From: Mobula hypostoma
Lineage: Eukaryota
Direction: 5' to 3'
Length of the DNA: 64,000 nt
NCBI RefSeq assembly: GCF_963921235.1
Contig: NC_086097.1
Span: 69,690,001 to 69,754,000, forward strand
Positions 1 through 49,940 of the stretch are shown piece after piece. The notes under the pieces were generated by a model, which worked only from the letters and a program-made list of their open reading frames with translations, was not told the origin of the DNA and made no database searches. The translations under genes and the position numbers were made by a program. The stretch's first letter is position 1. Each line of letters starts with the position of its first letter.

Positions 1-336
1 TGGTTCCTATTACTGGACATCACTACAGGCGACCTCCACATTACAAGAGGGTTGTACTATCAGCAGAAGGTCTGTATCGTAATTTTCCATAATGCAAAGC
101 AGGACATCTGTGCTTTTGTCAAGAAACAGGAGCTAAAAAAAATTTATTTACATTTTTCCCTCACATAAATTCCATGATAGCAAATTTTATTCCATGCCTT
201 AAATTTTTGGGTAGTGAATTGTGCAAGAGCATATTTTCATAACCCAAAAAGCTATAATGCAGGGATCGCCTGCATTTGACATGGGTAGTTAAGTGATAGT
301 TAAGTCAATTACAATTAACTCAAAGCAAAAGGATAC

Positions 337-348
337 ATCCAACTCACA
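337..348 (-). CDS. AP4S1: AP4S1 12-nt microexon (CELD) followed by a U12-type intron
   Basis: Minus strand reads CTCTAATCCTCCCTCTTTTTTTTCTTTTGCAG|TGTGAGTTGGAT|GTATCCTTTT. It supplies the conserved sigma-adaptin V-[CS]-E-L-D motif in frame after ...YFSRV. Confidence 0.92.
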
Positions 349-1284
349 CTGCAAAAGAAAAAAAAGAGGGAGGATTAGAGGAGAAAACATAGAATTTTCT
401 TTTCTCTTGGTATTTCAACAAACCTACTGTAATTGGAATGGACACTGTGGGCTGTGCAGAACCTGCAGCATGAAGGAGCTGATTGTGGTATCATCATATC
501 ACCAAAATACACAAACTAATTTCATTACAAATTGAACTTCTTATCAATCACCACTTCTATTTACAGAGGAACTTTGATATAGTACAGCCAAATACATACA
601 GGAAGCAGCTCCAGAGCCAAAAAAAGATCAGAGGAATAGTAAAAAAAAAACCAATGGATTTCAAGGCTGTTTTTAAAGCTAGAAGAAAAAGTTGGACCAA
701 GTTTAAGAAGGGAATTCCAAAAGTACAGGACACATGACCTGTAGCTAACAGTAAAATCTAGGAAGTGGCTGCATTAGAATATCAGTTTGGGTGGGTTGTG
801 GGGGTTGGAGAATATTGAAATAAGATGTATTGCAAAATACAGGGATCGGCTAGCTTCTCAGGATAATGTTCTATCTAGCTCTAAGATAAGGAGTTAATTC
901 TTCAATTAGAGATTGTGTACTCTTGTAATGCACTACCGCAGAGCTATGGACATTCAAAAGTAGATCCACAGAGTGATGGACACAAAGGGGCAAGGGGACC
1001 ATGAAGGCAAGTGGAAGAGGCAAAAGTTCTTACTGATTGACAGAGAAGGTTCAGGAGTCTGGGGTAGAGATATATACCCCACATATGGGGTAGAGATGGC
1101 TGAGAGGATGTGTGGGTGGGGTGGTGCACTCCTCATACTTATCCTGAGCTGCTGTGTGTACCTGTCAAATGAACTTGAGAATCTTTGAGCCACTCCCAGT
1201 GTTCCTTCTCCACTTTGGGTAGTCACTGAGGATGCTGAACATTTTCACTGGGGCTTTGATTTTTATTTTTAAAAACATTTTAAT

Positions 1285-1553
1285 TTGAGATACAGCATGG
1301 AATAGGCACTTCCAGCCCTTTGAATAGCACCACCCAACAACCCATCAATTTAACCTTTACCCTAGCCTAATCACGGGACAATTTGCAATAGCAATTAACC
1401 TACTAACTGGTACGTCTTTGAAAATTTAGGAGGAAACCCACCTGCCCACAGGGGAAAAGAGTGTACAAATTTGCTTACAGAGGATGGCTGAATTGAATTC
1501 CGACTCCTAGCTGTAATAACGTCATGCTAACCGCTATGGCGCCGTGGTGCCCC
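1285..1553 (-). mobile_element. tRNA-derived SINE
   Basis: Minus-strand head GGCACCACGGCGCCATAGCGGTTAGC...GAATTCAATTC with A/B-box-like motifs; related copies at about 39297-39582, 57400-57622 and 6520-6812. Confidence 0.7.
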
Positions 1554-1635
1554 AGTAGCGGGTGAATCTGTTGAATTAATCTATTCCTCTGTCAGACAAG
1601 CTCAGAACAGAGAGTCTGGTGTCAACTGAGTCAGC

Positions 1636-4426
1636 CTCCCAGCTGAATCAGCAGAATGCAATTAGGGAGTCTCCCAGCTGAATCAGCAGAGTGCAATAGG
1701 GGGTCTCCCAGCTGAATCAGCAGAGTGCAAAAGGGGGTCTCCCAGCTGAATCAGCAGAGTGCAAAAGGGGGTCTCCCAGCTGAATCAGCAGAGTGCAATA
1801 GGGGGTCTCCCAGCTGAATCAGCAGAGTGCAATAGGGTGTCTCCCAGATGAATCAGCAGAAAGCAATAGGGTGTCTCCCAACTGAATCAGCAGAGTGCAA
1901 TAGGGGGTCTCCCAGCTGAATCAGCAGAGTGCAATAGGGGGTCTCCCAGCTGAATCAGCAGAGTGCAAAAGGGGTCTCCCAGCTGAATCAGCAGAGTGCA
2001 ATAGGGGGTCTCCCAGCTGAATCAGCAGAGTGTAATAGGGGGTCTCCCAGCTGAGTGAGCGGAGTGTAATAGGGGGTCTCCCAACTGAATCAGCAGAATG
2101 CAGTCGGGGCTCTCCCAGCTGAATCAGCAGAGTGTAATAGGGGGTCTCCCAGTTGAATCAGCAGAAAGCAATAGGGTGTCTCCCAACTGAATCAGCAGAG
2201 TGCAATAGGGTGTCTCCCAGCTGAATCAGCAGAGTGCAATAGGGTGTCTCCCAGCTGAATCAGCAGAGTGCAATAGGGGGTCTCCCAGCTGAATCAGCAG
2301 AGTGCAAAAGGGGGTCTCCCAGCTGAATCAGCAGAGTGCAATAGGGGGTCTCCCAGCTGAATCAGCAGAGTGCAACAGGGGGTCTCCTAGCTGAATCAGC
2401 AGAGTGCAACAGGGGGTCTCCCAGCTGAATCAGCAGAGTGCAACAGGGGGTCTCCCAGCTGAATCAGCAGAGTGCAAAAGCGGGTCTCCCAGCTGAATCA
2501 GCAGAGTGCAATAGAGGGTCTCCCAGCTGAATCAGCAGAGTGCAAAAGGGGGTCTCCCAGCTGAATCAGCAGAGTGCAATTGGGGGTCTCCCAGCTGAAT
2601 CAGCAGAGTGCAGTCGGGGGTCTCCCAGCTGAATCAGCAGAGTGTAATAGGGGGTCTCCCAGCTGAGTCAGCGGAGTATAATAGGGGGTCTCCCAACTGA
2701 ATCAGCAGAATGCAGTCGGGGCTCTCCCAGCTGAATCAGCAGAGTGTAATAGGGGGTCTCCCAGTTGAATCAGCAGAAAGCAATAGGGTGTCTCCCAACT
2801 GAATCAGCAGAGTGCAATAGGGTGTCTCCCAGCTGAATCAGCAGAGTGCAATAGGGTGTCTCCCAGCTGAATCAGCAGAGTGCAATAGGGGGTCTCCCAG
2901 CTGAATCAGCAGAGTGCAATAGGGGGTCTCCCAGCTGAATCAGCAGAGTGCAATAGGGGGTCTCCCAGCTGAATCAGCAGAGTGCAATAGGGGGTCTCCC
3001 AGCTGAATCAGCAGAGTGCAATAGGGGGTCTCCCAGCTGAATCAGCAGAGTGCAATAGGGGGTCTCCCAGCTGAATCAGCGGAGTGCAATAGGGGGTCTC
3101 CCAGCTGAATCAGCAGAGTGCAATAGGGGTGTCTCCCAGCTGAATCAGCAGAATGCAATTAGGGGGTCTCCCAGCTGAGTCAGCGGAGTGTAATAGGGGG
3201 TCTCCCAGCTGAATCAGCAGAGTGCAATAGGGGGTCTTCCAGCTGAATCAGCAGAGTGCAATAGGGGGTCTCCCAGCTGAATCAGCAGAATGCAATAGGG
3301 GGTCTCCCAGCTGAGTCAGCGGAGTGTAATAGGGGGTCTCCCAACTGAATCAGCAGAATGCAGTCGGGGCTCTCCCAGCTGAATCAGCAGAGTGTAATAG
3401 GGGGTCTCCCAGCTGATTCAGCAGAGTGTAATAGGGGGTCTCCCAGCTGATTCAGCGGAGTGTAATAGGGCATCTCCCAGCTGATTCAGCGGAGTGTAAT
3501 AGGGGGTCTCCCAACTGAATCAGCAGAATGCAATCGGGGGTCTCCCAACTGAATCAGCAGAGTGCAATAGGGGGTCTCCCAGCTGAATCAGCAGAATGCA
3601 ATAGGGGGTCTCCCAGCTGAGTCAGCGGAGTGTAATAGGGGGTCTCCCAGCTGATTCAGCAGAGTGTAATGGGGGTCTCCCAGCTGATTCAGCAGAGTGT
3701 AATAGGGCATCTCCCAGCTGATTCAGCGGAGTGTAATAGGGGGTCTCCCAACTGAATCAGCAGAATGCAATCGGGGGTCTCCCAACTGAATCAGCAGAGT
3801 GTAATAGGGGGTCTCCCAGCTGAATCAGCTGAGTGCAATAGGGGGTCTCCCAGCTGAATCAGCAGAGTGTAATAGGGGGTCTCCCAGCTGATTCAGCGGA
3901 GTGTAATAGGGGGTCTCCCAGCTGATTCAGCGGAGTGTAATAGGGCGTCTCCCAGCTGATTCAGCGGAGTGTAATAGGGGGTCTCCCAACTGAATCAGCA
4001 GAATGCAATCGGGGGTCTCCCAACTGAATCAGCAGAGTGTAATAGGGGGTCTCCCAGCTGAATCAGCAGAGTGCAATAGGGGGTCTCCCAGCTGAATCAG
4101 CAGAGTGCAATAGGGGGTCTCCCAGCTGAATCAGCAGAGTGCAATAGGGAGTCTCCCAGCTGAATCAGCAGAGTGCAATAGGGGGTCTCCCAGCTGAATC
4201 AGCAGAGTGCAATAGGGGGTCTCCCAGCTGAATCAGCAGAGTACAATAGGGGGTCTCTCAGCTGAATCTGCAGAGTGCAATAGGGGGTCTCCCAGCTGAA
4301 TCAGCAGGGTGTAATAGGGGGCCTCCCAGCTGAATCAGCAGAGTGCAATAGGGGGCCTCCCAGCTGAATCAGCAGAGTGTAATAGGGGGTCTCCCAAATG
4401 AGTCAGCAGAATGCAATAGGGAGTCT
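1636..4426. repeat. Minisatellite, 34-bp unit CTCCCAGCTGAATCAGCAGAGTGCAATAGGGGGT, about 82 copies, in the AP4S1 intron upstream of the microexon
   Basis: Direct tandem repetition with point variants and no spacers. Confidence 0.97.
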
Positions 4427-5335
4427 TGACTTGGGAGAGGATGCTGATGTTCTACTGCTCAGTCTTCCAGTGTGTTTGGAGGAGTTTCTGAAGGCAGTGT
4501 TGGTTGTAGGCTGTCCAAGTCTACTGTCATAGTTCTGGTTCGGGTATGAGACATGATATATACTTTCTGACTTTGGACAATTTGAAGTTGATAAACATTG
4601 ACAGCATTGACTGGTTTTACAGAGTAAAACACTTTGTAGTGATTACATTTTCTTAAACAGAGCTGTTGCTGAAAATTATGAAGCTTTCTGAGGTGGCAAA
4701 ACAACTTTTGACTTGAGCATATGCTGCACATGAGGTGATTGAGCAAGTGCCATACTGTTGTGGCAAGTGCACAAGATGTTTCGGACTGAAGTTTCGTCCG
4801 AAAGGAATGCTAATACCTACTCTCCTTTCTTTAAGAGTACATAAACATATTGATGTCAAGATAGTGTTTATCTTGAAACAAAAGAATGAATTTTTCAAAC
4901 CATTTATACTTAAGTTGTATGGCATTATTGTTCATGGCATTTTTTACTTTGATTACCTTATTCTGACTACAGTGACTGGCATTAATCATTAAGTTTCTCT
5001 CTAAAATAACAGAATATCAATAAATGGAATCAAAGTGAGCACAAGAATGAAAATGAACAAGTTAATCAAGGTTATCCAGCTGGTACCCAAAATCATTGGC
5101 AAGGTACTTCAACATGAATTGCTTTCCCACTAAATGCCTGTTGAATTCCTCTTAAGGCTATTGTTGTTATTGTTTTCTTGGTAATATACACAGGCTAATG
5201 CCATGGCCTGATTTGTGTCTCTTCATATTCCTTATATGACTCTATGAACTGTGCTGGTATACCACCGGGGAACAAGTACAATTGTCCAGTAAGTATTTCT
5301 TTTGCAGTGATTAACAGTGTTCTTTAATGACTCAC

Positions 5336-5404
5336 CACTCTGCTGAAATATTTGTCCAAAACTTCAACAAAATTATGTATAAGTTCATACACTGCCAGTT
5401 CATT
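5336..5404 (-). CDS. AP4S1: AP4S1 coding exon 3 (69 nt)
   Basis: [23 protein letters not shown]; acceptor TTTTTCAG, donor GTG|GTGAGT. Confidence 0.96.
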
Positions 5405-8400
5405 CTGAAAAACAAAATTAGTTGATTTCATTAATTGTTTTTCAGTGTTGTTCATAATTTGGGTGGCTGCCTTTCATGTGGGAGTGAAGAAATGACATGA
5501 ACAGTTCGGATGAAAATCAAAAACTCCAGAACAAAGTAAAAAAAATTGCCATTATCAGAAATTTTAAATAATAACAAAACAATTGCTGGAAATGCATGTT
5601 AGGTGGCATTTGGGGGGGGGAGAGGGGCACGAGAGTGGGGGCGATGGGGAGAGGGAGAGATAAATTTTCAGATAGGTGACATTTTATTTGAAATTTGAAC
5701 CATTTGGATGAAAAGTTGCCAACCAAAATCATTATCTTTGCTTCCGTGAAGCTTCAGCATTTTCTGTTTTTTGTTCAAATACAGGATTATCAGACAGATT
5801 AAAAAGATAAGGATTGAAATAAATAGATGTTGCTTGCACGAATAATAATTGGAATGGGTTTGTCTTCCGTCATTTTAAATTTACTCTCAATGTCAATGTT
5901 ACTGACATGACTGCCATTTCGCACGATCTAACTGTCATGCTTGAGAGTCATCTTCAGCAGCGGCAGCCATCTGATAAGGCTCCTGGAGAACACAGCTCTA
6001 ATTTTTCTAATGGTCTTCAAAAAGAATTATCATTAACATTGGTATGGTAATGAATTCAAATACAAGTCAGATACTCTAAGTATGGTAAACGCTTTAGGAT
6101 ATTAGAATTTTTTGAGATTTTACAGCAATATAACAACTTATTGTTATACCAGGTTTTACAAATTATTTTATAGATAAATTTAAAGACCCCAACAGCCAAG
6201 GATTCCCATTCTCTAAGTGAATAACCTCAAAATGATAACAGGGTGTTTATAAGCAAAATTTACCGATGATAAAGACTTATTGATTATGGAAAACCCATGG
6301 CAGATTGCATGAGGTGTCTAAGAGTGAGTTTTATGGACTAAGCAGTTCGTACAGCAAATGCAATTCAATGCATGAATCGGTTTGATGGTCTTTGACAGTT
6401 CCTGAGCATTAGAAAACCCCCAAATGTAAATCTAACAAAGGAATTCCACCCTGCCAGAATCAGCTGCAGTCACAGAGATGGAAAGTCTCAAATGTTCACC
6501 ATTAAACTATCAGTGAGCTATAGAGATACAGCTCAGCAAATGGCCCTTTAGCACACAGAATCCAATTCAATCATCAACCACCATTTAATTAATTCACATC
6601 ATTTTCCCCACATTCTCATGAACTTCCCCATATTCTACCACTCACCTACAAACTAGGGGCAATTTACTTATTACTGGGGGGCAAATTAACCTATCAACCC
6701 ACACGTCTTGTAATCTGAGAGGAAAGCTGAGCACCAAGAGTAAATCTACATGGTCACAGAGAGAATGTACAAACTCCACAAAGGCAGCTTCAGAGGCGGT
6801 GACTGAAGCCAGGACTGAATGATGGTGGGGAAAGGATGCACAATTATTCCAAATGTACTTACTATGGCCGCAGACTGGATTAACAGTTCACCAAGTTACT
6901 TTAACAGGACCACTAAGCCATGATCCAAAATGAGCTGGACCACACAGTCCATGTCGCCCTTACAGCTCACAGGCTTGCAATGTTACACATAGCACTGACT
7001 GGAGAGAATACAAAAGGAAGTCTCTCTTTCACTCTGAAAATAAACTAGTTAAAAAAAAAAACAAAAATGCCACTGAAAGAGCAGCCTGAGTGGTAATTAT
7101 TAATGAGAAGTCCAGGCGCACCTTGGCTCAAAATGAACGACACGAGATGTACAAGTTACAACAGCCAAAGTTTCACCCATATTCTGGGTTGCCTATCCAA
7201 TAAGATTTCTGCTCAGAAGACTGGCCTTTGCCTCCCAAATGCGAGTATCCTCCCACAGGAGAGACACAAAAGATTGCGGATGCTGGAATCTGGAGCATCT
7301 CAGTGGACTGGGTAGCATCACTGGAAGGGAAAAGAACTGCTGAAGCTTTGCACTGAAACCCTGCATCAGGACTGAGAATTGAGAGGAAAGGAAGCTGGGG
7401 GGGGGTGGGTACAAGTGGAGACGGAGGCTGGGACATGAGGAGCACAAAGGCTACAGGTGCTAGATTCCGATAAGTAAGAAAGGTGACAATAGGAACCATT
7501 CTAATGAGAAAGGCAGATGGACCCAAATGGAGGAGGGGATCCAGTAGATGACGTGTGGGGGTATTGGTGTATGGAGGCAGGAAAGGGAGGCGGATATTGA
7601 AAAATGAATTTTTCTGGCTGCAGGTCCAATGTGCATGAATTGAGTTTTAAGACTCAAAGGGGCGACAGACCTGGTGAATTGAGGTTTTCCTCAGGCACCA
7701 ATCAATTGATTTATGCCCATTCTAACTTCTAATATGCTTAAAGGGGGCCCTTGGATGTCATGATGTTGGCAAAATGAAAAAAGGAAAATATTGGGTTCTC
7801 ATAATTTAATTATCAATTAGTAGAAAACTGTACAAATTTAAGCAATTGTGCATGTTTGTTAAAATACTGCTTGGGTTGCTAATGACGAAAAGGGATTGAG
7901 TACATCTATTTACATAACATAATTGTGGGCAGACTTGGCTGAGTGCAATGAGAAGATGTCATCTTCCACAGCAGTGTGAATGGACAGAACCACATAGTGG
8001 GAAAATGGTTCATCATTCTAAGAATGAAGAAAAGCAAACTAAAAGATTTTGTCTTGGAAAGAAAAGTTAAGGGGCTGTGTGACAGCTTTTCTGCTGAAAT
8101 AATCAACAGAATACTGGGAAGAAGAGAGAAAATCTTGATTAAGCTTAAGTAGGAAGGCTTAAAGAAATTTCAGGTTGTTCACAACTAATAACGATACCAA
8201 TGGATGTTTGCTCTTCAGTGGTAGAAAGGTAACAATTACAGCTTATAACATGAAACTCAGAGAGTTTCATTATGCTGTCTTCAAAATTAGGCTTAATGTC
8301 TCACACAGTCATTGAGAATGTTTGCACAAAAATCACAGCACAAATTGTACAGGTATCACCCAAAGCCTTCACCATTGAGGTGGGGCTGCACATGTACGAT

Positions 8401-8645
8401 GACATGCCAATTTGGTAAAGATTACACACATCAAATAGTTCAGGATGCTGAAATATTAATTAATATCGTAGGTATAAGAAATAATGTTGCAATTTTTACT
8501 CACCTTCCTCCATTATATACTGTAAACTGAGGTGTGGGGTTGTATATTGAAAAATACAGCATATAGAAGATAAAGAAAACACAGCCCAAAAAATTATTGA
8601 TGTTCAACACATATTGATTCAGTACAAATGGCAAATACTGTTTAC

Positions 8646-8732
8646 CTCTGAGTCATCGATCCCAATTACAACGAAGAGTGCAGCATACTGACGATAAACG
8701 AGCTTAAAATCCTTATACTCAACAAAGGAACA
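8646..8732 (-). CDS. AP4S1: AP4S1 coding exon 2 (87 nt)
   Basis: [29 protein letters not shown]; acceptor CTCCAG, donor GAG|GTAAA; phase 0 at both ends. Confidence 0.96.
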
Positions 8733-9251
8733 CTGGAGGGAAGACCGAAAGCATCTTTAGAAATTTCATGGCCTTAAATGGTCACATTAATTTTTTAAAT
8801 GTAAAAACCTTTTAAAGTGATGTCGCTGAAGTGTTTTCTTCCCCTCTTTAGTTAATTGGAGTCACACATTACATCCTAATCTCAACAGCTGGACCACAAT
8901 GTGAAATATTCTATTGAAGTGGACAGTCAGGAAGCTGCAGGGTTTTCCAGCTTCGTGAACGCCTTTTCCATTTTTAGCACTCCACCAAATTATTCACATT
9001 TTGTTAAGGAGTGTTTGACTCTTCCCCTACATCTAAATTTTCCTACCATCTTTGTCCTTTATAAGGAATGCTTCTCACCAATTCTGCCCTGCAAACCCAG
9101 GATGATGCATCTGGCTGTTATAACTTGCTAAACAATAAACTCCAATCCAACGTTGCCCTTTTGTAGCTGTACTATATAAGATACGTCAATGTAGTACAGA
9201 CATAAGCAATTATATAGATTCAGTAACTAAATAAAAGTGTTAACCTTTTAC

Positions 9252-9389
9252 CTGGTCCTTTGTGCGTGATAGGCATTTTTTAATTACATCTGCTTCCAAC
9301 AATGTCCTCTTCTGGATTTCCACAGGTTCATAATACCTACAGAGTCTTACTTGCCCTTGTCTGTTCATCAAGAGGAAGAACTTAATCAT
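9252..9389 (-). CDS. AP4S1: AP-4 complex subunit sigma-1, first coding exon (138 nt; the exon starts at about 9449 including 5' UTR)
   Basis: Translates [46 protein letters not shown], the AP4 sigma N-terminus. Donor CAG|GTAAAA at 9252/9251; pyrimidine tract and acceptor TTTTCAG at 9450-9451. Confidence 0.96.
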
Positions 9390-11537
9390 TTTGTAAATCT
9401 CAAAAGAAAGCCAAATAAGTGCTCCTTTTATTTTCCTTTCATAGTATTTCTGAAAACACAACAAAAAAAAAGATAATTAAATTTATCTTTGGATGCAGAA
9501 CAATTCTCGGCTTTGTAAATAAATCAGATTTTCCTTATGTAGTTAAAACAGGTATGTTTAAATACCATAATTTTAATGTTTATTGCTAAAACCATACAAT
9601 CATTTACAGTAACATTCACACAGTTCCTACTGACGTGCACTGTAAGTGTGGAAAATTTGATTCATGCTCTCATCAGAGAGCAGATGAGTTCACCACGGGT
9701 CCAACAGATGCAAATTGTGTTTGGTTTTCAGTGGCAGCTCTTCAACGATAAAGATACACTTTAATTGCAGTGTCTGCTTTTGTGAGGTCAGAAAACAACT
9801 TTGCAGAGCCTAAAGAAATGATAATTTTAACCAAGTACAACAATGTGATGGACTGTCAATTTTTAATACCATGATGGAATGATCAGATTCATACTGAATT
9901 CAGAGTTGGGGTAGGCCAGTGAACGGCAAGAGGTCTGAAAATGAAAAAAAAATTCTCATGTGCCTTCTATTACAACAGGAAGAGTAGTAGGAATAACAAT
10001 GAAACAGACATGATTATCTGTTTTATTTAATACCAGAAAGCATTAGTGGCATCTTCTGCCCTTGCCATAAGATCAGCAAGTGCAGAAAATGCCACTAATG
10101 AAAACTGAAAAAATACTCCTGCTGCATGATGTAGCTGTCAAAAGAAATACAATCTAACAAGAGCATGCTGATTACTTTGCAAGAACAAAATAATAGAAAA
10201 ATGAATTCTCAATACCTTCTCCAGCATTACTGTGCAGTACTATGAAATGAGTTAGCTGTGGACAGGTGGTTTGTTTTATACATAGCACAAACAATTTTCA
10301 AAACTGCATTTCAATAGTTACAATGTTTAAATAGCTCTTTAAATTAAGTATTTGCTTTCATTACCCTTAGGGTGGGAGTGCTTCATGGGAGGCCTGGTTG
10401 CAGTCAAAGGATGGGATGGTACAGTTGGGCGGTGACTTATCATCTTGTGTTCTGGTGGTGGTAGGGTAGCAGGAGCGGGGTGTTAATGGTGGGGATTAAT
10501 AGAAATTCATGACCTGGAGTTGGGAGGATCAAGGAGATTGGGAAGTTAGCAAACAAAAATTCATAGTTAAGAATAATCTTAGCAGAAGTTGGGGCCAAGC
10601 TGAGGTCACTGTACCATGGTGGGGGGGAAGACAAAATGTAAGAAGATGTATCTTAAGACTAGTCCAGTGTAGGGAATGGAAAGTACAAACTAATTTGGTG
10701 AGCGTGTAATATGAAATGCATATGAAATCCCAAGTACAACTTGTGCCGGGAAATGCCCAGTCACATTGCTGGAATAAATTGGAAATTGTCATTATTACAA
10801 TGCACCCTGGGGATAGCTCAGTGTTGAAGTGTACAGAGGAGTGAAAGCGAAATTCCATGCCGATATTCCCAAAGTAAATTAGGAAAGAAAGTACTCATGA
10901 AGTAGGATGTGTACTCTGGGTAGCTCTCAGTGGTTACAATACAGAACCATATTCATGCTTAACTATCTTTCTGGTTAACTGGATACTATCTGTCAGCAAA
11001 TGAAAGTGCAACCCATAAAGACGTAAACAGCTGCGTCAGTAGTTTCTGGTTACAGTGACCTCCACACCAGTAATTCCACAGCTGCATTCCACCCTAATTC
11101 TGCAGATACTATAAATACCTTGTTATCACGAGATAACATGACAGGAAACCCCATTCACAATTCAAAGCAAGAATAAATCTCCTCAAACAAAAACGGAAAG
11201 AAATTTAACTTAACTCTTAAATTCTTAAACTACAATCTGCTGAAGATGTAACCAATTAAAATAGATATGCCTTGTACCTCCCACCCACTCTCCAGCCCAA
11301 CCCTTCTCATTACTAAATTGCTCGCTGAACTGTGTTCAGTTAAGTCATACTCAGCAGTAGCTGTCAGTCACAGTGGCTTTGGAAGTCTGTAGCTAGTCTT
11401 GGCATTGTTGAATTAGATATAACGGCTATTTCCTTAACGTTATTTACCGACCGCTAGAGTTTACATTACCTTAATGATTAGTAAGGCCCAAAAAATAAGT
11501 TCTTGCACTTAGATAGCACCACTCACAATCAGCCCTT

Positions 11538-11558
11538 CACACACACACACACACACAC
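11538..11558. repeat. (CA)n microsatellite
   Basis: Seen directly. Confidence 0.95.
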
Positions 11559-12189
11559 AAACTGAAATAAGATCCACAAATAAGAGCTAAAAGATCGGTT
11601 AATTTATTTTTCATCTGTTGATAGAAGATCAGCCGCATATTGTGGGCCTAATGACCTATCTAGTGCTCTGTAGTTCTACGTTCGGTCAATCATTCATTCT
11701 TTTCACACCTCCAACTACAAATATCTTCCAACAGGTAACTTTTGCACTCTGCAGACTCATTTTGTCTATGAAACCTATCTATTACTGTCAAAACACCCTC
11801 TCTGCAGTTTCCGTATTCTTGCTTTCAAACTCCTATCATATTTCTTCCTCAAAATAACAGTGATCATTGGAAAATGATAGAAGAACCAGACCTCTTGTCC
11901 TCTCTCTGGTACAAGGTATCGTTTAGATTATATGCTCTCGCAACGGGCCCAGTTAAACACCCCACAGACAAACTTAGCGTCTTATTACAGGGGATAATTG
12001 AATGTTCAAAGACTAAGTATCGTAAGAAATCCCTTTGAATCCCTTTCCATTTCATTGGTAGCGCCCTTGAATAAACTATCATAGAATCCAAACAAAAATG
12101 TAATTCGCAAATCAGGGTTGAAAAACGTCTAATTTTCAAAACTTAAAAAAAGACTTGTTATTAGGACTAAAGCTGTGCCCACTTCTGGT

Positions 12190-22800: not shown

Positions 22801-25165
22801 TTGAGAGATCCAAAATAAATTAAATTTTGTGATCTGCAATTTTTCCAGTTTTGGAACTGTAACAAATAACTTCACAAATAAATAGAATTTAGAATAGGAC
22901 TATTGCAAGTGAGTAATGAACTTGAAAAGAAACTCTTTAAATACAGTTGGTTAAATGGTTGAAAGGCCAAGGGACTTCGGTTTGAAGATTGGAGTCTGGG
23001 CTCATTTGAGGCTTTCAAGGCTTCATACCTGGGATGATACCTGTAACTCAACTTTTCCTTCATTTGTCCTTTTTTTTTGCTTGTAAAATATTTTTAGTTT
23101 GGTTGTGAAGGGCATACTTTCCAGTTTTGTTACCAGGTGCATTTTTGTTTTCAGAATCTATTTTTAAATTTATTTCTCATTGTGAGCTGTAGAATTTGAA
23201 TATGTGAAGCAACGTTTCTGGAAATTATTTTTACTTAGGCAAAACAGCCAGCAAATGTGCTTAATAAATCATTATGGGGTTGAGGATGAGAAGCACACGC
23301 AGAAAAGTGGAATAATTAATGTTTGTGGAAATCAGGAGGTCTTGAATGGTGAATTGTGAAATATTGTACTGAAAAAGATCGCACATTTATTACTGTCTCT
23401 CTCGCTAGGTAAGATTTTATTGGCATATTTCTTAACAAATGATGTAGCTATGTCAAATTCTGAACAGTTGCTTAAGCACAATGAATGTTTTGTAGATACT
23501 GGGCTCATTACAATTATTCTAATTATTTTTCTCACTATTTATACTTTAAAATTATTTCAGCCATGAATACAACAGGATTTTATGCTGTTTTGCAAGGTCA
23601 CTTATTATTATATAACGATAGTTATGTGAGAGGATTATTAAAAAGCAAAATGCTGGAGGTACATACTTCACAGGTCATGCTGTATTTTTGGGAAGAGAAG
23701 CAGTTGACTTTTCACATCGGATGAAACTTTAACCCTTTTCCCCCTCTCCACAGTGGGTGCTTGATCGGCAGAGCTTTTCCAGCATTTTCTGTTGTTATTT
23801 CAGATTTCCCAGCCTCTGCAATTTCTAAGCCTTTCTGAGGTTGTTGAATTCCCTATTCATTGGTCACTGATACAAGGCCCTGCCTCCTGTGATTTTAATT
23901 TTAGCAGTGCTGTTATATGAGTATCATTGTTTTCAGGTGACTTAATTGTTTTGCTTAGAATTATTCATGGCTGAAGATAGATTTACTGCGATTTCATTTA
24001 TAATTTGTCAGGTCCCAGAGAATTTTTTTTTGCATATTTCATGTCACATATTTACATTAGTTTTCATGTCCAGGAAAGTTTTACATTTGTTGCGCATTGC
24101 ATGCTTTCAACACATTTTTAATTCGTATTTGGTCTGTTGAACACCTTGTTCAAATTGTCAAAATAAAGGTAAAGTTAACTGACTTTAAATTAGAACTTCT
24201 AATGATTCATCCACATTTGCATTTAATTGCATTTTCTTAGTTTAGGAGAGCTTATTGGAAAGTTGGTGAATTTATTAAAATAATTACATAGCTTAAGCTT
24301 GTTTTATTAAGCAGGCATCGAGGGTACAATGAATATCTTTTAAGAACATGCTGCCTGGCCTGCTGCGTTCACCAGCAACTTTGATGTATGTTGCTTGTTA
24401 AAGTGATGTCATGTTTTCTAGCTGAAATTTCACCGGTGTGAACAAGGTTTATGAGAGCTGTGGAAGGAAGAGAAAGAGCATTTTTTTTCAGCTCGTTGAT
24501 TTGAATAGAGAGTACTGCATGATGTAAGAATGCATTTTAAGTTATAATATTATAAAGGAGAAAATAAAATTCTTCGTTCTTGGATTTATCATTTGAACTG
24601 TGAACATCCAACATAACTGAGTGGGTTACACACTGTCATTTCAGCTCTGGGAATTTGTGATTTTCTTTTTACAGATTCCGGTAGCTGAATATGTTCATAA
24701 TTATTTTACACTGGAAGTGAATAATTAGTATGGGAAGAATAGAAATATATTTTTCAGTGGGTGCTTTTAAATTTGTGACTGAATATGTTGTTTAGATCGG
24801 GTGAAGGGAGTAAGTATCTAATATACTAGTTGATACAGGGTCCTGACTTTAGGTGCATGTGTTATCAATAAAAAAAACTAAAATAACTGTGCCCAGAACA
24901 CATGCACCCTTACGATTCAAACATACTTTATCTCTTTGTGCATAAGGAGAACAGCATGGCTCCTGTTACCACTGTTCCAAAGCCAGGACAAAAAACTGCT
25001 GTTGTTATGTAGAATTGGCATATCAGTTATGGATATTGACTATTTGTAAATTGTATATGTTTGAATTCCTTGCTTGCAAGATCAAACACGAGGAAATCTG
25101 CAGATGCTGGAAATTCAAGCCACTGGTGAACGCAGCAGGCCAGGCAGCATCTCTAGGAAGAGGTA

Positions 25166-25203
25166 CAGTCGACGTTTCGGGCTGAGACCCTTCGTCAGGA
25201 CTA
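25166..25203 (-). ncRNA. Minimal type I hammerhead ribozyme motif
   Basis: Minus strand UAGUC-CUGACGA-AGGGUCUCAGCCC-GAAAC-GUC-GACUG, with an intact core. Confidence 0.8.
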
Positions 25204-26067
25204 ACTGAAGGAAGAGCTAGTAAGAGATTTGAAAGTGGGAGGGGGAGGGGGAGATCCAAAACGATAGGAGAAGACAGGACGGGGAGAGATGGAGCCAAGA
25301 GCTGGACAGTTGATTGGCAAAAGGGATATGAGAGGATCATGGGACAGGAGGCCCAGGGAGAAAGAAAAGGGGGAGGGGGGGAAAAGCCCAGAGGATGGGC
25401 AAGGGGTATAGCGAGAGGGACAGAGGGAGGAAAAGGAGAGAGAAAGAAAGAATGTGTGTATATAAATAAATAACGGATGGGGTATGAGGGGGAGGTGGGG
25501 CATTAGCGGAAGGTGGTGTTTCTCCAACCTGAGTATGGCTTCATCTTTACAGTACAGGAGGCCGTGGATAGACATATCAGAATGGGAATGGGATTGATTC
25601 GCTGAACACCTACGCTCTGTCCTCCAGAGAAAGCAGGAACTCCCAGTGGCCCACACATTTTAATTCCACGTCCCATTCCCATTCTGATACGTCTATCCAT
25701 GGCCGCCTCCACTGTCAAAGTGAAGCCACACTCAGGTTGGAGGAACAATACCTTGTATTCCGTCTGGGTTGCCTCCAACCTGATGGAATAAACATTGACT
25801 TCTCAAACTTCTACTAATGCCCCACCTCCCCCTCGTACCCCATCTGTTATTTATTTATATACACACATTCTTTCTTTCTCTCTCTCTCCTTTTTCTCCCT
25901 CTGTCCCTCTCACTATACCCCTTGCCCATTCTCTGGGTTTTCCCCCCCTCCCCCTTTTCTTTCTCCCTGGGCCTCCTGTCCCATGATCTTCTCATATCCC
26001 TTTTGCCAATCAACTGTCCAGCTCTTGGCTCTATCTGTTAATGCCCCACCTCCCCTAACCCCATACG

Positions 26068-39619: not shown

Positions 39620-41325
39620 AAGGCTAAAAGTATAAGACGTGAGAGAATAGGACCAATCTAGTGTGACAGTGGAAAAGTATGCATGGAACCGGAGGAGACA
39701 GCAGAGGTATGAGTACTTTGCTTCGGTATTCACTACAGAAAAGGATCTTGGCGATTGTAGGGATGACTTTGGAAAGCATCAAGTTGGATAAGTCATCGGG
39801 ACTGGACGAGATGTACCCCAGGCTACTGTGGGAGGCGAGGGAGGAGATTGCTGAGCCTCTGGCAATGATTTTTGCATCATCAATGGGGACGGGAGAGATT
39901 CTGGAGGATTGGAGGGTTGCGGATGTTGTTCCATTATTCAAGGAAGAGAGTAAAGATAGCCCAGGAAATTATAGACCAGTGAGTCTTCCTTCAGTGGTTG
40001 GTAAATTGATGGAGAAGATCCTGAGAGGCAGGATTTATGAACATTTGGAGAGGCATAATAAGATTAGGAATAGTCAGCATGGCTTTGTGAAAGGCAGGTC
40101 GTGCCTTATGAGCCTGATTGAACTTTTTGAGGATGTGACTAAACACATTGATGAAGGAAGAGCAGTAGATGTAGTGTATAGGGATTTCAGCGAGGCATTT
40201 GACAAGGTACCCCATGCAAGGTTTATTGAGAAAGTGAGAAGGCATGGGATCCAAGGGTACATTGCTTTGTGAATCCAGAACTGGCTTGCTCACAGAAGGC
40301 AAAGAGTGGTTGTAGACGGGTCATATTCTGCATGGAGGTTGGTGATCAGTGAGTATGCCTCAGGGATCAGTCTGGAACCTCTGCTCTGTGATTTTTATAA
40401 ATGACCCGGATGAAGCAGTGGAGGGATGGGTTAGTAAGTTTGCTGATGACACTGTTGTGGATAGTGTGGAGGACTGTCAGCGGTTACAGCGGGACATTGA
40501 TAGGATGTAAAACTGGGCTGAAAAGTAGCAGATGGAGTTCAGCCCAGATAAGTTCAATTTGGTAGGTCAAATATGATGGCAGAATATAGTATTAATGGTA
40601 AGACTCTTGGCAGTGTGGAGGATCAGAGGGATCTTGGGGTCCGAGTCCATAGGACACTCAAAGCTGCTGCGCAGGTTGACTCTGTAGTTAAGAAAGCATA
40701 CGGTGCATTGGCCTTCATCAATCATGGGATGGAGTTCTAAGAGCCAAGAGGTAATGTTGCAGCTATATAGGATCTTGGTCAGACCCCATGTGGAGTACTG
40801 TGCTCAATTCTGGTCACCTCACTATAGGAAGGATGTGGAAACTATAGAAAGGGTGCAGAGGAGATTTACAAGGAAGTTACCTAGATTGGGGAGCATGCCT
40901 TATGAGAATAGGTTAAGTGAACTCAGCCTTTTCTCCTTGGAGCGACAGAGGATGAGAAGGTGACCTGATAGAGGTGTATAAGATGATGAGAAGCATTGAT
41001 CGTGTGGCTAGTCAGAGGCTTTTTCCTAGGGCTGGAGTGGCTTGCACTAAAGGGCACAGTTTTATAGTGCTTGGAAGTTGGTACAGAGGAGCTGTCAGGG
41101 ATAGGTTTTTTTACACAGATGGGTGAGTGCATGTAATGGGCTGCCGGTGCTGGTTGTGGAGGTGGATACGATAGGGTCTGTTAAGAAACCCCTAGACAGG
41201 TACATGGAGCTCAGAAAATTGGAGGGCTGTGGGTAACCCTGGGTAATTTCTAAGGTAAGGACATGTTCGGCACAGCTTTATGGGTCGAAGGGCCTGTATT
41301 GTGCAGTAGGGTTTTCTATGTTTCT
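39620..41325 (+). mobile_element. CR1 LINE, 5'-truncated (ORF2 RT and 3' UTR)
   Basis: PGNYRPVSLPSVVGKLMEKIL...SQHGFVKGRSC...AVDVVYRDFSEAFDKVPH; LVRPHVEYCAQFWSPHYRKD; 3' tail TTTTCTATGTTTCT. Confidence 0.94.
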
Positions 41326-44329: not shown

Positions 44330-46526
44330 ACTGAAGGAAGAGTAAGTAAGGGATTTGAAAGTTGGAGGGGGAGGGGGAGATCCAAAATGATAGGAGAAGA
44401 CAGGAGGGGGAGGGATAGAGCCAAGAGCTGGACAGGTGATAGGCAAAAGGGGATACGAGAGGATCATGGGACGGGAGGTCCGGGAAGAAAGACGGCGGGG
44501 GGGGGGGGGCCCAGAGGATGGGCAAGAGATATATTCAGAGGGACAGAGGGAGAAAAAGGAGAGTGAGAGAATGAATGTGTGCATAAAAATAAGTAACAGA
44601 TGGGGTACGAGGGGGAGGTGGGGCCTTAGCGGAAGTTAGAGAAGTCGATGTTCATGCCATCAGGTTGGAGGCTACCCAGACGGAATATAAGGTGTTGTTC
44701 CTCCAACCTGAGCGTGGCTTCATCTTTACAGTAGAGGAGGCCGTGGATAGACATGTCAGAATGGGAATGGGATGTGGAATTAAAATGCGTGGCCACTGGG
44801 AGATCCTGCTTTCTCTGGCGGACAGAGCGTAGATGTTCAGCAAAGCGGTCTCCCAGTCTGCGTCGGGTCTCGCCAATATGTAAAAGGCCACACCGGGAGC
44901 ACCGGACGCAGTATATCACCCCAGTCGACTCACAGGTGAAGTGTTGCTTCAGCTGGAAGGACTGTTTGGGGCCCTGAATGGTGGTAAGGGAGGAAGTGTA
45001 AGGGCATGTGTAGCACTTGTTCTGCTTACACGGATAAGTGCCAGGAGGGAGATCACTGGGGAAGGATGGGGGGGACGAATGGACAAGGGAGTTGCGTAGG
45101 GAGCGATCCCTGCGGAATGCAGGGTGGGGGGAGGGAAAGATGTGCTTAGTGGTGGGATCCCGTTGGAGGTGGCGGAAGTTACGGAGAATAATACGTTGGA
45201 CCTGGAGGCTGGTAGGTGAGGACTAAGGGAACCCTATTCCTAGTGGGGTGGCGGGAGGATGGAGTGAGAGCAGATGTACGTGAAATGGGGGAGATGTGTT
45301 TAAGAGCAGAGTTGATAGTGGAGAAAGGGAAACCCCTTTCTTTAAAAAAGGAAGACATCTCCCTCGTCCTAGAATGAAAAGCCTCATCCTGAGAGCAGAT
45401 GCAGTTGCAAAAACGCCATCCCCTTCTCGCAATTCCTCCGTCTCCGCCGCATCTGCTCTCAGGATGAGGCTTTTCATTCTAGGACGAGGGAGATGTCTTC
45501 CTTTTTTAAAGAAAGGGGCTTCCCTTCCTCCACTATCAACTCTGCTCTTAAACGCATCTCCCCCATTTCACGTACATCTGCTCTCACTCCATCCTCCCGC
45601 CACCCCACTAGGAATAGGGTTCCCCTAGTCCTCACCTACCACCCTACCAGCCTCCGGGTCAAACGTATTATTCTCCGTAACTTCCGCCACCTCCAACGGG
45701 ATCCCACCACTAAGCACATCTTTCCCTCCCCCCCCCCGCATTCCACAGGGATCGCTCCCTACGCAACTCCCTTGTCCATTCGTCCCCCCCATCCCTCCCC
45801 ACTGATCTCCCTCCTGGCACTTATCCGTGTAAGCGGAACAAGTGCTACACATGCCCTTACACTTCCTCCCTTACCACCATTCAGGGCCCCAAACAGTCCT
45901 TCCAGCTGAGGCAACACTTCACCTGTGAGTCGACTGGGGTGATATACTGCGTCCGGTGTTCCCGAAGTGGCCTTTTATATATTGGCGAGACCCGACGCAG
46001 ACTGGGAGACCGCTTTGCTGAACGTCTACGCTTTGTCCGCCAGAGAAAGCAGGATCTCCCAGTGGCCACACATTGTAATTCCACATCCCATTCCCATTCT
46101 GACATGTCTATCCACGGCCTCCTCTACTGTAAAGATGAAGCCACGCTCAGGTTGGAGGAACAACACCTTGTATTCCGTCTGGGTAGCCTCCAACCTGATG
46201 GCATGAACATCGACTTCTCTAACTTCCGCTAAGGCCCCACCTCCCCCTCGTACCCCATCTGTTACTTATTTTTATGCACACATTCTTTCTCTCACTCTCC
46301 TTTTTCTCCCTCTGTCCCTCTGAATATACCTCTTGCCCATCCTCTGGGTCCCCCCCCCCCTTGTCTTTCTTCCCGGACCTCCTGTCCCATGATCCTCTCG
46401 TATCCCCTTTTGCCTATCACCTGTCCAGCTCTCGGCTCTATCCCTCCCCCTCCTGTCTTCTCCTATCATTTTGGATCTCCCCCTCCCCCTCCAACTTTCA
46501 AATCCCTTACTCACTCTTCCTTCAGT

Positions 46527-46564
46527 TAGTCCTGACGAAGGGTCTCGGCCTGAAACGTCGACTG
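46527..46564 (+). ncRNA. Minimal type I hammerhead ribozyme motif in a Penelope pLTR
   Basis: UAGUC-CUGACGA-AGGGUCUCGGCCU-GAAAC-GUC^-GACUG has both catalytic boxes, a short stem II, a palindromic ACGU stem III, a GUC cleavage triplet and stem I (AGUC/GACU). Confidence 0.82.
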
Positions 46565-47429
46565 CACCTCTTCCTACAGATGCTGCCTGGCCTGCTGCGT
46601 TCACCAGCAACTTTGATGTGTGTTGATACAAACCTGAGATTCTTTATCTTTATTCTCACATTCATGTGCAATCTGTATTCATCTGTCCTGAAATGTTTAA
46701 AATAGTTAATATTGCCAATAGTGCTTGTTATTTTCAGGTTTGCAGTTTGAGTGAAGTCTTCAATGTGATTAACTCCCTGTTGCTGGATGTCAGGAATGCT
46801 GGCAGCTGACAACAACTGATACCTTCTAAGAATAAATCCATGCTACAAATTATCATGTCCATGAAACAGTTTTTTTTGGGATTAGCTTCACAGGTCTTTC
46901 TTTGGCCACTGACAGAAGACTGCAAGCCTTCAAATGCACGAAGGCCATGGAAAGTAGAACTACTCTCGAATACATGGTTTTATTTGGGACAATTTTCTAG
47001 AATACTCTGTTCTTGAACTAGCAGGCTTTCAGAACATATTTGATTTTTTTTAATGAAGTTTTAGATATAAACAAGTTGGGAGGAAGAGCAGGTGACTGAG
47101 TCACCAATGAAAGTTTAAATTTAAGTGATGGAGCTGCAATTAACTACCAATAATTTCAGGAATAGCAAGGAATACAGTCATAAGTAGATGAGTTAAGTGA
47201 AACTAGAAGCACTGCTTCTTCACAGCTATTGTGACCTTGTTTCAATCAAATGGTTCAGTCTAATGGTGGCACGCAAGGATACAGCAGCTTATCTAGCTCC
47301 CAATAATGATGCTAATTTTAAACTCTTAGATAGTGTTTCAATGTTTCTAGTCAAGACACTACAGTCAACCAAAGTTCCATGAATACAGCATTGCTGAACT
47401 CTGACAAAATTACTTTTAAAGCGACCGGC

Positions 47430-49940
47430 TGTGGAGTTAATAGTGGTGCTCAACGTACTAGGGATTCTACAAACACCAGACCCAGTGATAGTGACCTAGA
47501 CTAGACAGCTCAGCTGAGGAAGTGACAGACACAAGCAGTATGAGAGGAGGCAGAAACTTGGCAAGAGTGCCGAGGCACTGGCTGGGCTGAGAGGTAACCC
47601 AACCACATCAGTGGTACTGTCACTTTTCCTGTCCAACATCTGTTCGCTAGAAAATAAATTGGCCTTACTGGGACTGAGAATGAACGCACAGAAAGAAATG
47701 AGAAACTCCTGTATTCTGGTTTTCACCAATATGTGGTTAAACAACAACATGCCTGATTTGACATTTCAACTCCACGGGATGACTCTGTTCCGCATAAACA
47801 GGAACTTCCTGTCGGAATATCGATAGGTGAGGGCATTTGTGTGTACATTAACAAAGGTTGGTGCATGCTGTAATCTATAGTTAGCAGTTGCTGTTCTGTG
47901 GCAATTGAACATTTTACAATTAAATGCTGGCCAAGTTACCTGCTTAGGGAATTTACTGCTGTGTTCGTCACTGCTGTCTACAGTTCCCTCAGTGCAAACA
48001 CCAAGGACGCCCAGAAAGCTTTACCATATCATCAGCTCTCTACGAAACAAGCATCTTGATGGTCTCGTCATAATTGCAGACTTCAATCATGTTAACCTGC
48101 AGGACATTTTACTCAAATTCCACCAACACATCACCATGGCCACTAAGGGAACAAACAGACTGGACCATGTTCATACAAACAGATGCAGTACTGGCAAAGC
48201 CATCACATGCCCTCATCTTTGCCTCTAACCACATCTCCATGTTAATCCCAGCATAATGGCTGCTTTTGAAAACAGAGAAACCAATCGAGGACCGTATGAG
48301 GCAATTTCGATGCTTCAGGACTGCTTCAGGTGGACTAACGGGCAGATCTTCATGGAGGCTGCCGCAAACGGAGAAGACACAGACATTTAGGAATATGTCT
48401 CATCTGTCATCGGGTACATCAGTAAGTGTGTACAGTTTTTAATGCCATGGACCAATGCCAATAAGCAAGGGCTGTGAGGACGCCAGGTTGGGAATGCCTG
48501 GTGTAGATGATGCTGGTACCTTAAGAATGGTCATCTCATGGCCCAATCAGGGACTTAATAAAGCCTGGGGACTTTGCCTTTAAGTCTGGTGACAGAATAT
48601 TTCTAAGAGCAGCCAGGAGAAATCTCACCTGCATCAAGAGGGCTAAAACTACCTGCGCTCAAAAAGTTCAGAAAAACCTATCCGATAACAATCCTTGACA
48701 CGTGTGGCTGGGCATCAAGGGCATTATTGACTACGCAAGGAAAAACAGCGTCAACAGGACCAGTAACATCTCCCTCCCTGATACTATAAATGACTGTTAT
48801 GCATGCTTTTGCAACACAATGCCAACCTCAAATGCTACCCCTTTACCAGGTGAACAGCTACTGTCTGTAACATCAGCAGATGTTACATCCCTGGCCAAGT
48901 ATTCTGGGAATGGGCACACCAGCTCACTGATGTCTTTATGGACATCTTCAACGTATCACTCATCCAGACTGTTATCCCTACATGCTTCAAATCAGCCACC
49001 ATCATTCCTGTACCAAAGAACTCTACACCTTCAGAACTAAATACCTACAGCTCAGTGGTACTGATGCCAATCATGAAGAGCTTTAAATGGCTGGTGATGG
49101 CACTTAACAAAAACTCCATTCTAGCCACATTGGACATTCACTGATAGGCTTATCAACAGAATCGCTCTATGACAGGTGCTCATGCTCCTGGCCCTGATAC
49201 ACCCAGAAAACGAAGACACTTATGTAAGAATGCTGTTTCTGGACTTCAGACTTTGGTGAACAAAATCCTATTGCTTGGTCTAAATACACCACAGTGGAAC
49301 TGCGTTTTGGATTTTCTAACCAGTAGACCTTATTGTCAGTATGCACAACTGCTCCTCCCTCCCCAGCATCCTCAACACAGGTGCCCCCCAGGTCTGTGTG
49401 CTGAGCCCATTGCTGTACACTTTGCTCACTGTGTGGCCAAACACATTCAGTTTGCCAATGGCATGACAGTGGTGGAGTTCATCACCAACAATGATGAGAT
49501 GGCCTGCAGAGAGGAGGTAGAAAAGCAGGAGACCTGGTGCCAGGCAAAAAAAAACCTCTTCCTCAATGCCAACAAGACAGGAGATAGTTATCAACTTCAG
49601 AAGAACTTGGACCACTCACAACCCTCTTTTCATTGGCAGCACATGTATGGAAGCTGAGAAGGTTCAAACTCCTGGGAGTGCACATCTCGCACAACCTCTC
49701 AAGTTCCCAGAACATGTGCATAATCAGGAAACCTCACCAATGCCTCTACTTTCTGAGGAGACTGAAGAGAGCTGGACTATGCACATCTATACTCGCATCA
49801 TTCTGTAGGTGCACAGTAGAGAGCATCTAAACAAGCTGCATCACTGCATGCATGGAAACTGCACTGCAGCAGATAGGAAGGCTCTACAATCGTAGTTAAA
49901 ACTGCCCAGTGCATTGCTGGCACCTGCCATCAAGAACTTA
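47430..49940 (+). mobile_element. Near full-length degenerate Rex1/Babar-like LINE (APE endonuclease and RT)
   Basis: LSNICSLENKL, IIADFNHVNL, DIFNVSL...PTCFKSATIIPVPK, WNCVLDFLTSRP, and GAPQ..VLSPLL motifs across frameshifts. Confidence 0.82.

What the first reader, a model, noticed from the sequence alone, without database searches (positions are those of the whole stretch)
327..380. 12-nt AP4S1 microexon between a major (U2) and a minor (U12) intron
Seen: a minus-strand branch-like CTCTAAT, a pyrimidine tract, CAG|TGTGAGTTGGAT|GTATCCTTTT. GTATCCTTT is the canonical U12 5' splice site, while the upstream intron starts with U2-type GTGAGT. Known: adaptor sigma-subunit genes carry minor introns, and the [CS]ELD motif is conserved. 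Inference: two spliceosomes must act across only 12 nt, and gene predictors will easily miss this exon. Skipping it would need an incompatible U2-donor/U12-acceptor pairing.
Basis: partly seen in the sequence, partly recalled or inferred. Interest (0 to 1): 0.7.

Follow-up and report, generated by a model that had tools for sequence, protein, structure and literature searches.

The report
Known 12-base exon before minor intron
A ray's AP4S1 gene (a vesicle-coat subunit linked to spastic paraplegia in people) uses a four-codon exon between an ordinary intron and one with the signals of the rare "minor" splicing machinery, but the exon is already annotated and the matching minor intron is already catalogued in mouse, so this is ordinary conserved gene structure.

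Summary
Window 348-337 (minus strand) is exon 5 of AP4S1 (Cys-Glu-Leu-Asp, residues 99-102 of 144). Transcript-like contigs from 3 of 4 runs laid (three organisms, three studies) join exon 4, these 12 bases and exon 6 exactly. The upstream 4,987-nt intron has major-type signals. The downstream 981-nt intron has a perfect U12 donor and a U12-like branch site 17 nt before its AG, with one mismatch to the core. It is not new: a RefSeq ray protein matches 144/144, mouse Ap4s1 has the same donor in a minor-intron catalogue, and human AP4S1 is in two minor-intron tables. The human disease variant c.295-3C>A sits at this exon's acceptor by numbering. Gene models do often drop the exon (29 of 120 homologues). 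The scan had no earlier AP4S1 note, but noted like layouts in TMEM216/TMEM80 and CIBAR2 on other DNA.

The parts
9252..9389 (-). AP4S1 first coding exon (ATG; 138 nt, residues 1-46), ordinary GT donor
   Evidence: 46/46 to RefSeq protein P0137
8646..8732 (-). AP4S1 coding exon, 87 nt, residues 47-75
5336..5404 (-). AP4S1 exon 4, 69 nt, residues 76-98
   Evidence: same span as human exon 4 (aa 76-98, PMC6167175)
349..5335 (-). Intron 4, 4,987 nt, phase 0, major (U2)-type signals: GTGAGT donor, long pyrimidine tract, CAG
   Evidence: class inferred from sequence
374..380 (-). Predicted U2 branch site CTCTAAT, branch A at 375 (-27)
   Evidence: only YUNAY match in the last 60 nt of intron 4; not mapped experimentally
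337..348 (-). Exon 5, the 12-nt microexon, Cys-Glu-Leu-Asp (residues 99-102)
   Evidence: joined to exons 4 and 6 in contigs of runs X7, X2, X15
328..336 (-). U12-type 5' splice site GTATCCTTT, preceded by GAT
   Evidence: the 12-mer is the same as mouse Ap4s1's catalogued minor donor
1..336 (-). In-window part of intron 5 (981 nt, phase 0, GT-AG U12-type signals). It ends outside the window at G000:C1:69689356; U12-like branch 8-mer TCTTTAAC with A at -17; exon 6 (residues 103-144 and stop) starts at G000:C1:69689355 (L002:9355)
   Evidence: contigs of 4 of 4 runs stop aligning at that base

Best explanation
Window 348-337 is a 12-nt coding exon of the AP4S1 gene that transcript contigs join between exons 4 and 6; it lies between an intron with major-type signals and one with minor-type signals, and the two are likely removed one after the other, major first. 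Shown: exon borders, reading frame (138+87+69+12+129 = 435 nt, 144 aa), inclusion in the dominant transcript. Inferred: U2 snRNP and U2AF recognise the strong acceptor (branch A at -27, long pyrimidine tract) and join exon 4 to the microexon. The U12 donor then sits behind a normal-sized composite exon, and the slower minor spliceosome removes the last coding intron using the branch site at -17. U11 binding at the donor may help define the upstream acceptor, as published for other minor-intron genes. The mismatch of intron classes likely keeps skipping low. The four residues are part of the conserved core of the sigma subunit, next to Ile103, so the exon is probably constitutive. When the minor intron is not removed, translation would read on through the donor (Val-Ser-Phe...) to a stop 15 codons later and lose the last two helices.
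For: Junction: (3 of 4 runs; organisms B, A, G; studies P2, P1, P7; G has one synonymous change in the exon); one long contig per run ends at the acceptor in 4 of 4 runs, with no long contig over the intron. Single AP4S1 locus and no processed copy among 13 matches in G000. Intron class: perfect donor with AT (not AG) at -2/-1, CAG|AT acceptor, no pyrimidine tract between branch site and AG, fitting the rules in PMC10853781 (passages and section 16). Mouse orthologue catalogued with the same donor, score 94.4 (PMC6717393 supplement rows). Human AP4S1 is in the minor-intron gene table (PMC4667643 supplement row) and among U12 sites overlapped by ZRSR2 CLIP. Order: 12 of 148 representatives read exon 4, SELD, then VSF; five were named: two primates, a gerbil, a parrot, a wolffish. 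Importance of the residues: present in human sigma-4 of PDB 9u9i and as CELD in the four AP-1 sigma alignments shown; I103S abolishes epsilon and AAGAB binding (PMC9635299 passages).
Against: The ray branch site is imperfect: 1 mismatch to TCCTTRAY and 2 to TTCCTTRAY, and 10 sites in the intron reach 2 mismatches or fewer. The same 8-mer appears in one intron (MTBP) that PMC10853781 calls misclassified. No experiment shows which spliceosome acts in this species. The runs are 'RNA?' guesses held as contigs, which drop rare isoforms. The read-through isoforms are database models, show only that intron 4 can go without intron 5, and do not prove the usual order. RefSeq isoforms without the exon exist in several sharks and teleosts.
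Confidence: 0.85

Rival explanations
1. The exon is a regulated cassette: the exon 6 acceptor is dual-type and the major spliceosome regularly joins exon 4 straight to exon 6, giving a 140-aa isoform.
For: RefSeq lists paired isoforms with and without the four residues for Heptranchias and Heterodontus, and UniRef for Pristiophorus; Neoarius has a 140-aa isoform without them beside a 144-aa one. Dual-type acceptors exist (CENATAC, DRAM2, PFDN5, KANSL2; MAPK12 under minor-spliceosome defect). A review by the same group says the human variant 3 nt before an AP4S1 exon caused exon skipping (PMC9560997 passage; which junction was not stated).
Against: All 3 contigs that cross the junction include the exon. 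Of 18 Logan-sourced proteins among the 120, 12 include it and none lacks it cleanly. A 12-nt exon whose start resembles the intron 4 start is easy for aligners to lose (inference). The deletion is in a conserved core.
Confidence: 0.1
2. Intron 5 in this ray has drifted to major-spliceosome use despite its U12-like donor.
For: Branch site has a C-to-T change from the core consensus; a U-rich tract and a second AG lie 33 nt upstream of the acceptor.
Against: Contigs use the downstream AG, which has no pyrimidine tract. The donor is perfect with AT at -2/-1. Intron-derived peptides in 10 of 29 irregular fish models are compatible with a TCCTTRAY site just before the acceptor (indirect, by back-translation).
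Confidence: 0.04
3. Both spliceosomes assemble at once across the 12 nt by exon-bridging, and this joint step is obligatory.
For: U11-dependent bridging to upstream major acceptors is published (bioRxiv 10.1101/2020.05.18.101246 passages; PMC8329584 passages).
Against: Read-through isoforms show exon 4 joined to exon 5 without intron 5 removal. Very short exons are generally thought too small for simultaneous occupancy (recalled, not from a call).
Confidence: 0.2

Closest known systems
Mouse Ap4s1 minor intron, chr12:51730900-51738552 (Olthof et al. 2019, PMC6717393, supplement rows seen)
   Same: Same donor 12-mer (GAT then GTATCCTTT), same gene; by the GAT codon, the same position after Asp102.
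   Different: 7,653 nt against 981 nt; mouse branch site is consensus (TTCCTTAAT), the ray's has one core mismatch. The table marks it 'MouseOnly'.
Human AP4S1 exon 5 and its U12 intron (PMC4667643 Supplementary Data 4 row; PMC10853781 Table S4 row, chr14:31562088-31562137 hg19; PMC6167175 whole text; PMC12110826 passages)
   Same: Exon 4 ends at c.294 / residue 98 in both; human protein has SELD at 99-102; c.295-3C>A maps to this exon's acceptor by numbering.
   Different: Ser for Cys at 99. I did not see the human genomic sequence, so the 12-nt size of human exon 5 and the identity of the CLIP site as the last acceptor are inferred.
RefSeq AP-4 complex subunit sigma-1 of Mobula (P0137; XP_062906540.1, XP_072123362.1)
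   Same: 144 of 144 residues identical to the five exons, microexon included.
   Different: None at protein level.
AP1S-like paralogues in G000 (C9, C12, C18)
   Same: Same fold, CELD motif, an ordinary phase-0 intron one codon earlier (before Val98).
   Different: CELD is part of the following exon; no microexon and no U12 donor at the exon ends checked.

Membership tests
AP4S1 (AP-4 sigma subunit) | PF01217 and best match to sigma-4 rather than sigma-1/2/3 | tested here: met
   9u9i_S E 4.5e-17 against 9e-05 or worse for other sigmas.
Microexon (3-27 nt; threshold recalled) | Exon of 27 nt or less, included in spliced RNA with AG/GT borders | tested here: met
   12 nt, joined on both sides in 3 of 4 runs.
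Neural SRRM4-type regulated microexon | Tissue-specific inclusion | not testable with these tools
   Only contigs of unlabelled runs; all that cross the junction include it.
U12-type GT-AG intron (intron 5) | 5' splice site RTATCCTTT | tested here: met
U12-type GT-AG intron (intron 5) | No AG at exon positions -2/-1 | tested here: met
   AT; rule from PMC10853781.
U12-type GT-AG intron (intron 5) | TCCTTRAY-like branch site about 10-20 nt before the acceptor, no pyrimidine tract | tested here: met
   TCTTTAAC, A at -17, one core mismatch; met with a degenerate site, no PWM score computed.
U12-type GT-AG intron (intron 5) | Removal depends on U11/U12/U4atac/U6atac | not testable with these tools
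   Only indirect: ZRSR2 CLIP overlap at a human AP4S1 U12 site.
U2-type intron (intron 4) | GTRAGT donor, YUNAY branch, pyrimidine tract, YAG | tested here: met
U2/U12 twintron | One intron type nested in or overlapping the other, with both paths used | tested here: not met
   The introns are tandem; only one path is seen in contigs. Rare paths cannot be excluded.

The most novel reading that the evidence does not exclude
The microexon plus last minor intron is an old dosage switch for AP-4. When minor splicing slows, exon 4 to 5 is joined but the U12 donor is read through, giving a truncated sigma-4 with a Val-Ser-Phe tail that would escape nonsense-mediated decay. Such isoforms are annotated from teleosts to primates, a ribbon-worm model diverges at the same place (CEQD then VSL), and AP-4 loss could add to the neurology of minor-spliceosome diseases.
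Probability: 0.12. Interest if true: 0.5.

Novelty: already known. Interest (0 to 1): 0.17.

Why it matters
As a finding it is ordinary: a conserved, annotated exon next to a catalogued minor intron. Its use is practical. About a quarter of the fish homologue models examined drop these four residues, and variant interpretation at human c.295-306 should allow for a U12 donor. It is also a compact natural substrate for the question of how major and minor spliceosomes cooperate over a very short exon. I found no held paper whose main text names AP4S1 with minor splicing (0 papers each); the link appears only in supplementary tables.

Tried and rejected
Chance: each motif alone is at chance level, but the RNA junction settles it. 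ELD codons from another place or a processed copy: rejected. Run X21 laid nothing; no run was on record as RNA. Laying the whole 10-kb span was not possible because of a repeat, so the exon 4 side was read from loose-end letters only. AlphaFold model of a shark orthologue (P0020, 20-row alignment) was low confidence (mean pLDDT 55); it puts residues 100-105 in a short helix between two long ones; not relied on, no fold search run. Rfam: nothing in window 1-12000. No AP4S1 in the supplements held for PMC7507305 (4 files), PMC7367187 (1 file) or PMC10639083 (1 file). The zebrafish Zrsr2 supplement could not be read and bioRxiv supplements are closed; they may list the fish intron. McCullough et al. 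2020 (PMID 31660686) was seen only as a citation and a one-sentence summary. Searches for papers on microexons beside minor introns gave no listing devoted to that. One flag (P0058) was a false match inside exon 4 and was dropped. The AP2S1-like locus on C40 was checked at one exon only. intronIC and MaxEnt scoring were not available.

Full report
What was checked. Exon 4 lies at 5404-5336 and is followed by GTGAGT. The U12 donor 9-mer and a Cys-Glu-Leu-Asp-coding 12-mer each occur once in the window, at chance frequency when taken alone (0.72 and 0.62 expected). The case rests on their abutting and on RNA.

The gene. The window is G000:C1:69690001-69754000. Neighbouring stretches gave the last coding exon at L002:9355, 981 nt after the microexon. 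The five coding exons are 138, 87, 69, 12 and 129 nt, all phase 0, summing to 144 codons and a stop. Pfam PF01217 covers profile positions 47-75, 76-98 and 103-141 with the three flanking exons, leaving 99-102. The best solved relative of the last exon is human AP-4 sigma-1 (9u9i). The nearest named proteins are from rays and skates, and a RefSeq Mobula protein is identical in all five exons, 144 of 144. A whole-protein search of G000 gave 13 matches: four are this locus and the rest are paralogues on C9, C12, C18 and C40, with no processed copy.

RNA. No listed run is on record as RNA; 18 of 23 are guessed RNA. In 4 of 4 runs laid first, one long contig covered the last exon and stopped at its first base, with no long contig over the intron. 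In the second lay, 3 of 4 runs gave a 30-letter loose end at that base, made of the 12-nt exon and the last 18 bases of exon 4 (runs X7, X2, X15; three organisms, three studies); X21 laid nothing. X15 has a synonymous change in the Cys codon. Contigs drop rare variants, so low-level skipping is not excluded.

Intron classes. Intron 4 (4,987 nt) has a GTGAGT donor, one YUNAY match with A at -27, a 48-nt AG-free zone and a long pyrimidine tract. Intron 5 (981 nt) has a perfect U12 donor with AT before it, a TCTTTAAC site with A at -17, no pyrimidine tract after it, and CAG|AT at the end. The branch site has one mismatch to TCCTTRAY; ten sites in the intron are within two mismatches of the 9-mer, and this is the only one near the end. 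Kwon et al. (PMC10853781; passages, section 16, one supplement row) report that AG at -2/-1 marks false U12 calls and that CA[G/C]|AU is typical of true ones. They also list the same 8-mer in one misclassified intron, so the ray's class is inferred, mainly from the donor and from orthology.

What is known. Olthof et al. 2019 (PMC6717393; passages and supplement rows) list mouse Ap4s1 with the same donor 12-mer, score 94.4, and a consensus branch site. They mark it 'MouseOnly'. Their method keeps only introns of the longest-CDS transcript, and primates have longer read-through isoforms, which likely explains the mark. Human AP4S1 is in the minor-intron gene table of Merico et al. 2015 (PMC4667643; passages and supplement rows) without intron coordinates, and among U12 sites overlapped by ZRSR2 CLIP. 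Human exon 4 encodes residues 76-98 and ends at c.294 (PMC6167175, whole text), so the SPG52 variant c.295-3C>A (PMC12110826, passages) is the -3 base of this exon's acceptor. Searches for AP4S1 with 'minor intron' and 'U12', or with 'minor spliceosome', returned no main text.

Annotation loss. Of the best 120 of 193 homologues (not independent species), 62 have [CS]ELD in place, 29 lack exactly those four residues, 5 read on into Val-Ser-Phe, and 24 are otherwise irregular or unanchored. Of 18 with a Logan source, 12 include the exon and none lacks it cleanly. Zebrafish has both a 140-aa NP_001003826.1 without the exon and a 144-aa form with it. Several sharks have paired RefSeq isoforms with and without it; these may be aligner artefacts or real low-level skipping, and I could not tell which.

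How it likely works. The major spliceosome joins exon 4 to the microexon through a strong acceptor, and the minor spliceosome then removes the last coding intron. Support for that order is indirect: 12 of 148 cluster representatives read exon 4, SELD, then Val-Ser-Phe, the translation of the U12 donor, and the five named are primates, a gerbil, a parrot and a wolffish. In the ray the read-through would stop after 15 codons. U11-mediated help for upstream acceptors is published and may apply. Skipping needs the major spliceosome to use a U12 acceptor, which is rare but documented. The residues lie beside Ile103, whose mutation abolishes binding to epsilon and AAGAB (PMC9635299, passages).

Paralogues and age. 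Three AP1S-like genes in G000 have an ordinary intron one codon earlier, with CELD inside the next exon and no U12 donor at the exon ends checked. So the layout is specific to AP4S1 among those examined. A Lineus model diverges after CEQD into Val-Ser-Leu, two unnamed JGI proteins diverge after CELD into Val-Ser, and one unnamed ENA protein has an insertion after Val98. These hint that both intron positions are old, but Val-Ser can come from either donor type and no DNA was seen.

Verdict. Real, correctly read, and already known from annotation and minor-intron catalogues. Interest 0.17. The boldest reading left open is a conserved minor-splicing switch on AP-4 levels (probability 0.12). One weak hint is lower AP4S1 expression in Roifman syndrome cells (log2FC -0.86, p 0.03, FDR 0.56), which is not significant after correction.

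Noticed in passing
window 347-342 (minus): The microexon itself holds GTGAGT from its second base, a U2-donor-like hexamer 11 nt before the U12 donor and the same as the start of intron 4. It could confuse aligners or compete weakly. It is lost in organism G, so it is not conserved.
   Followed up: partly
L012:588-590 (about 33 nt before the exon 6 acceptor): A U-rich tract and second AG lie 33 nt upstream of the U12 acceptor, in frame and stop-free (11 codons): a candidate cryptic U2 acceptor if minor splicing fails. Not used in the contigs seen.
   Followed up: partly
L014, L015, L016, L017, L018: AP1S-like paralogues have their intron before Val98, AP4S1 after it: a near-intron pair 3 nt apart, possibly an old intron slide.
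   Followed up: no
window 9450-9390 (minus): Two AG acceptors lie upstream of the ATG exon (ending near 9450 and near 9399); the longer form matches the N-terminal extension of stingray model P0005.
   Followed up: no
proteins P0181, P0202, P0244, P0275: Non-vertebrate sigma-4 models break at the same two positions (after Val98 or after Asp102), hinting that the intron positions are ancient.
   Followed up: partly
window 25023-25659, 39667-40272, 44626-46705, 49148-49657; L012:4058-4280: Stop-free stretches of 150-200 codons, some near a repeated motif seen at 25329, 25994, 26215, 44456 and 46400, probably mobile-element remnants; a simple repeat lies in intron 4. Not identified.
   Followed up: no
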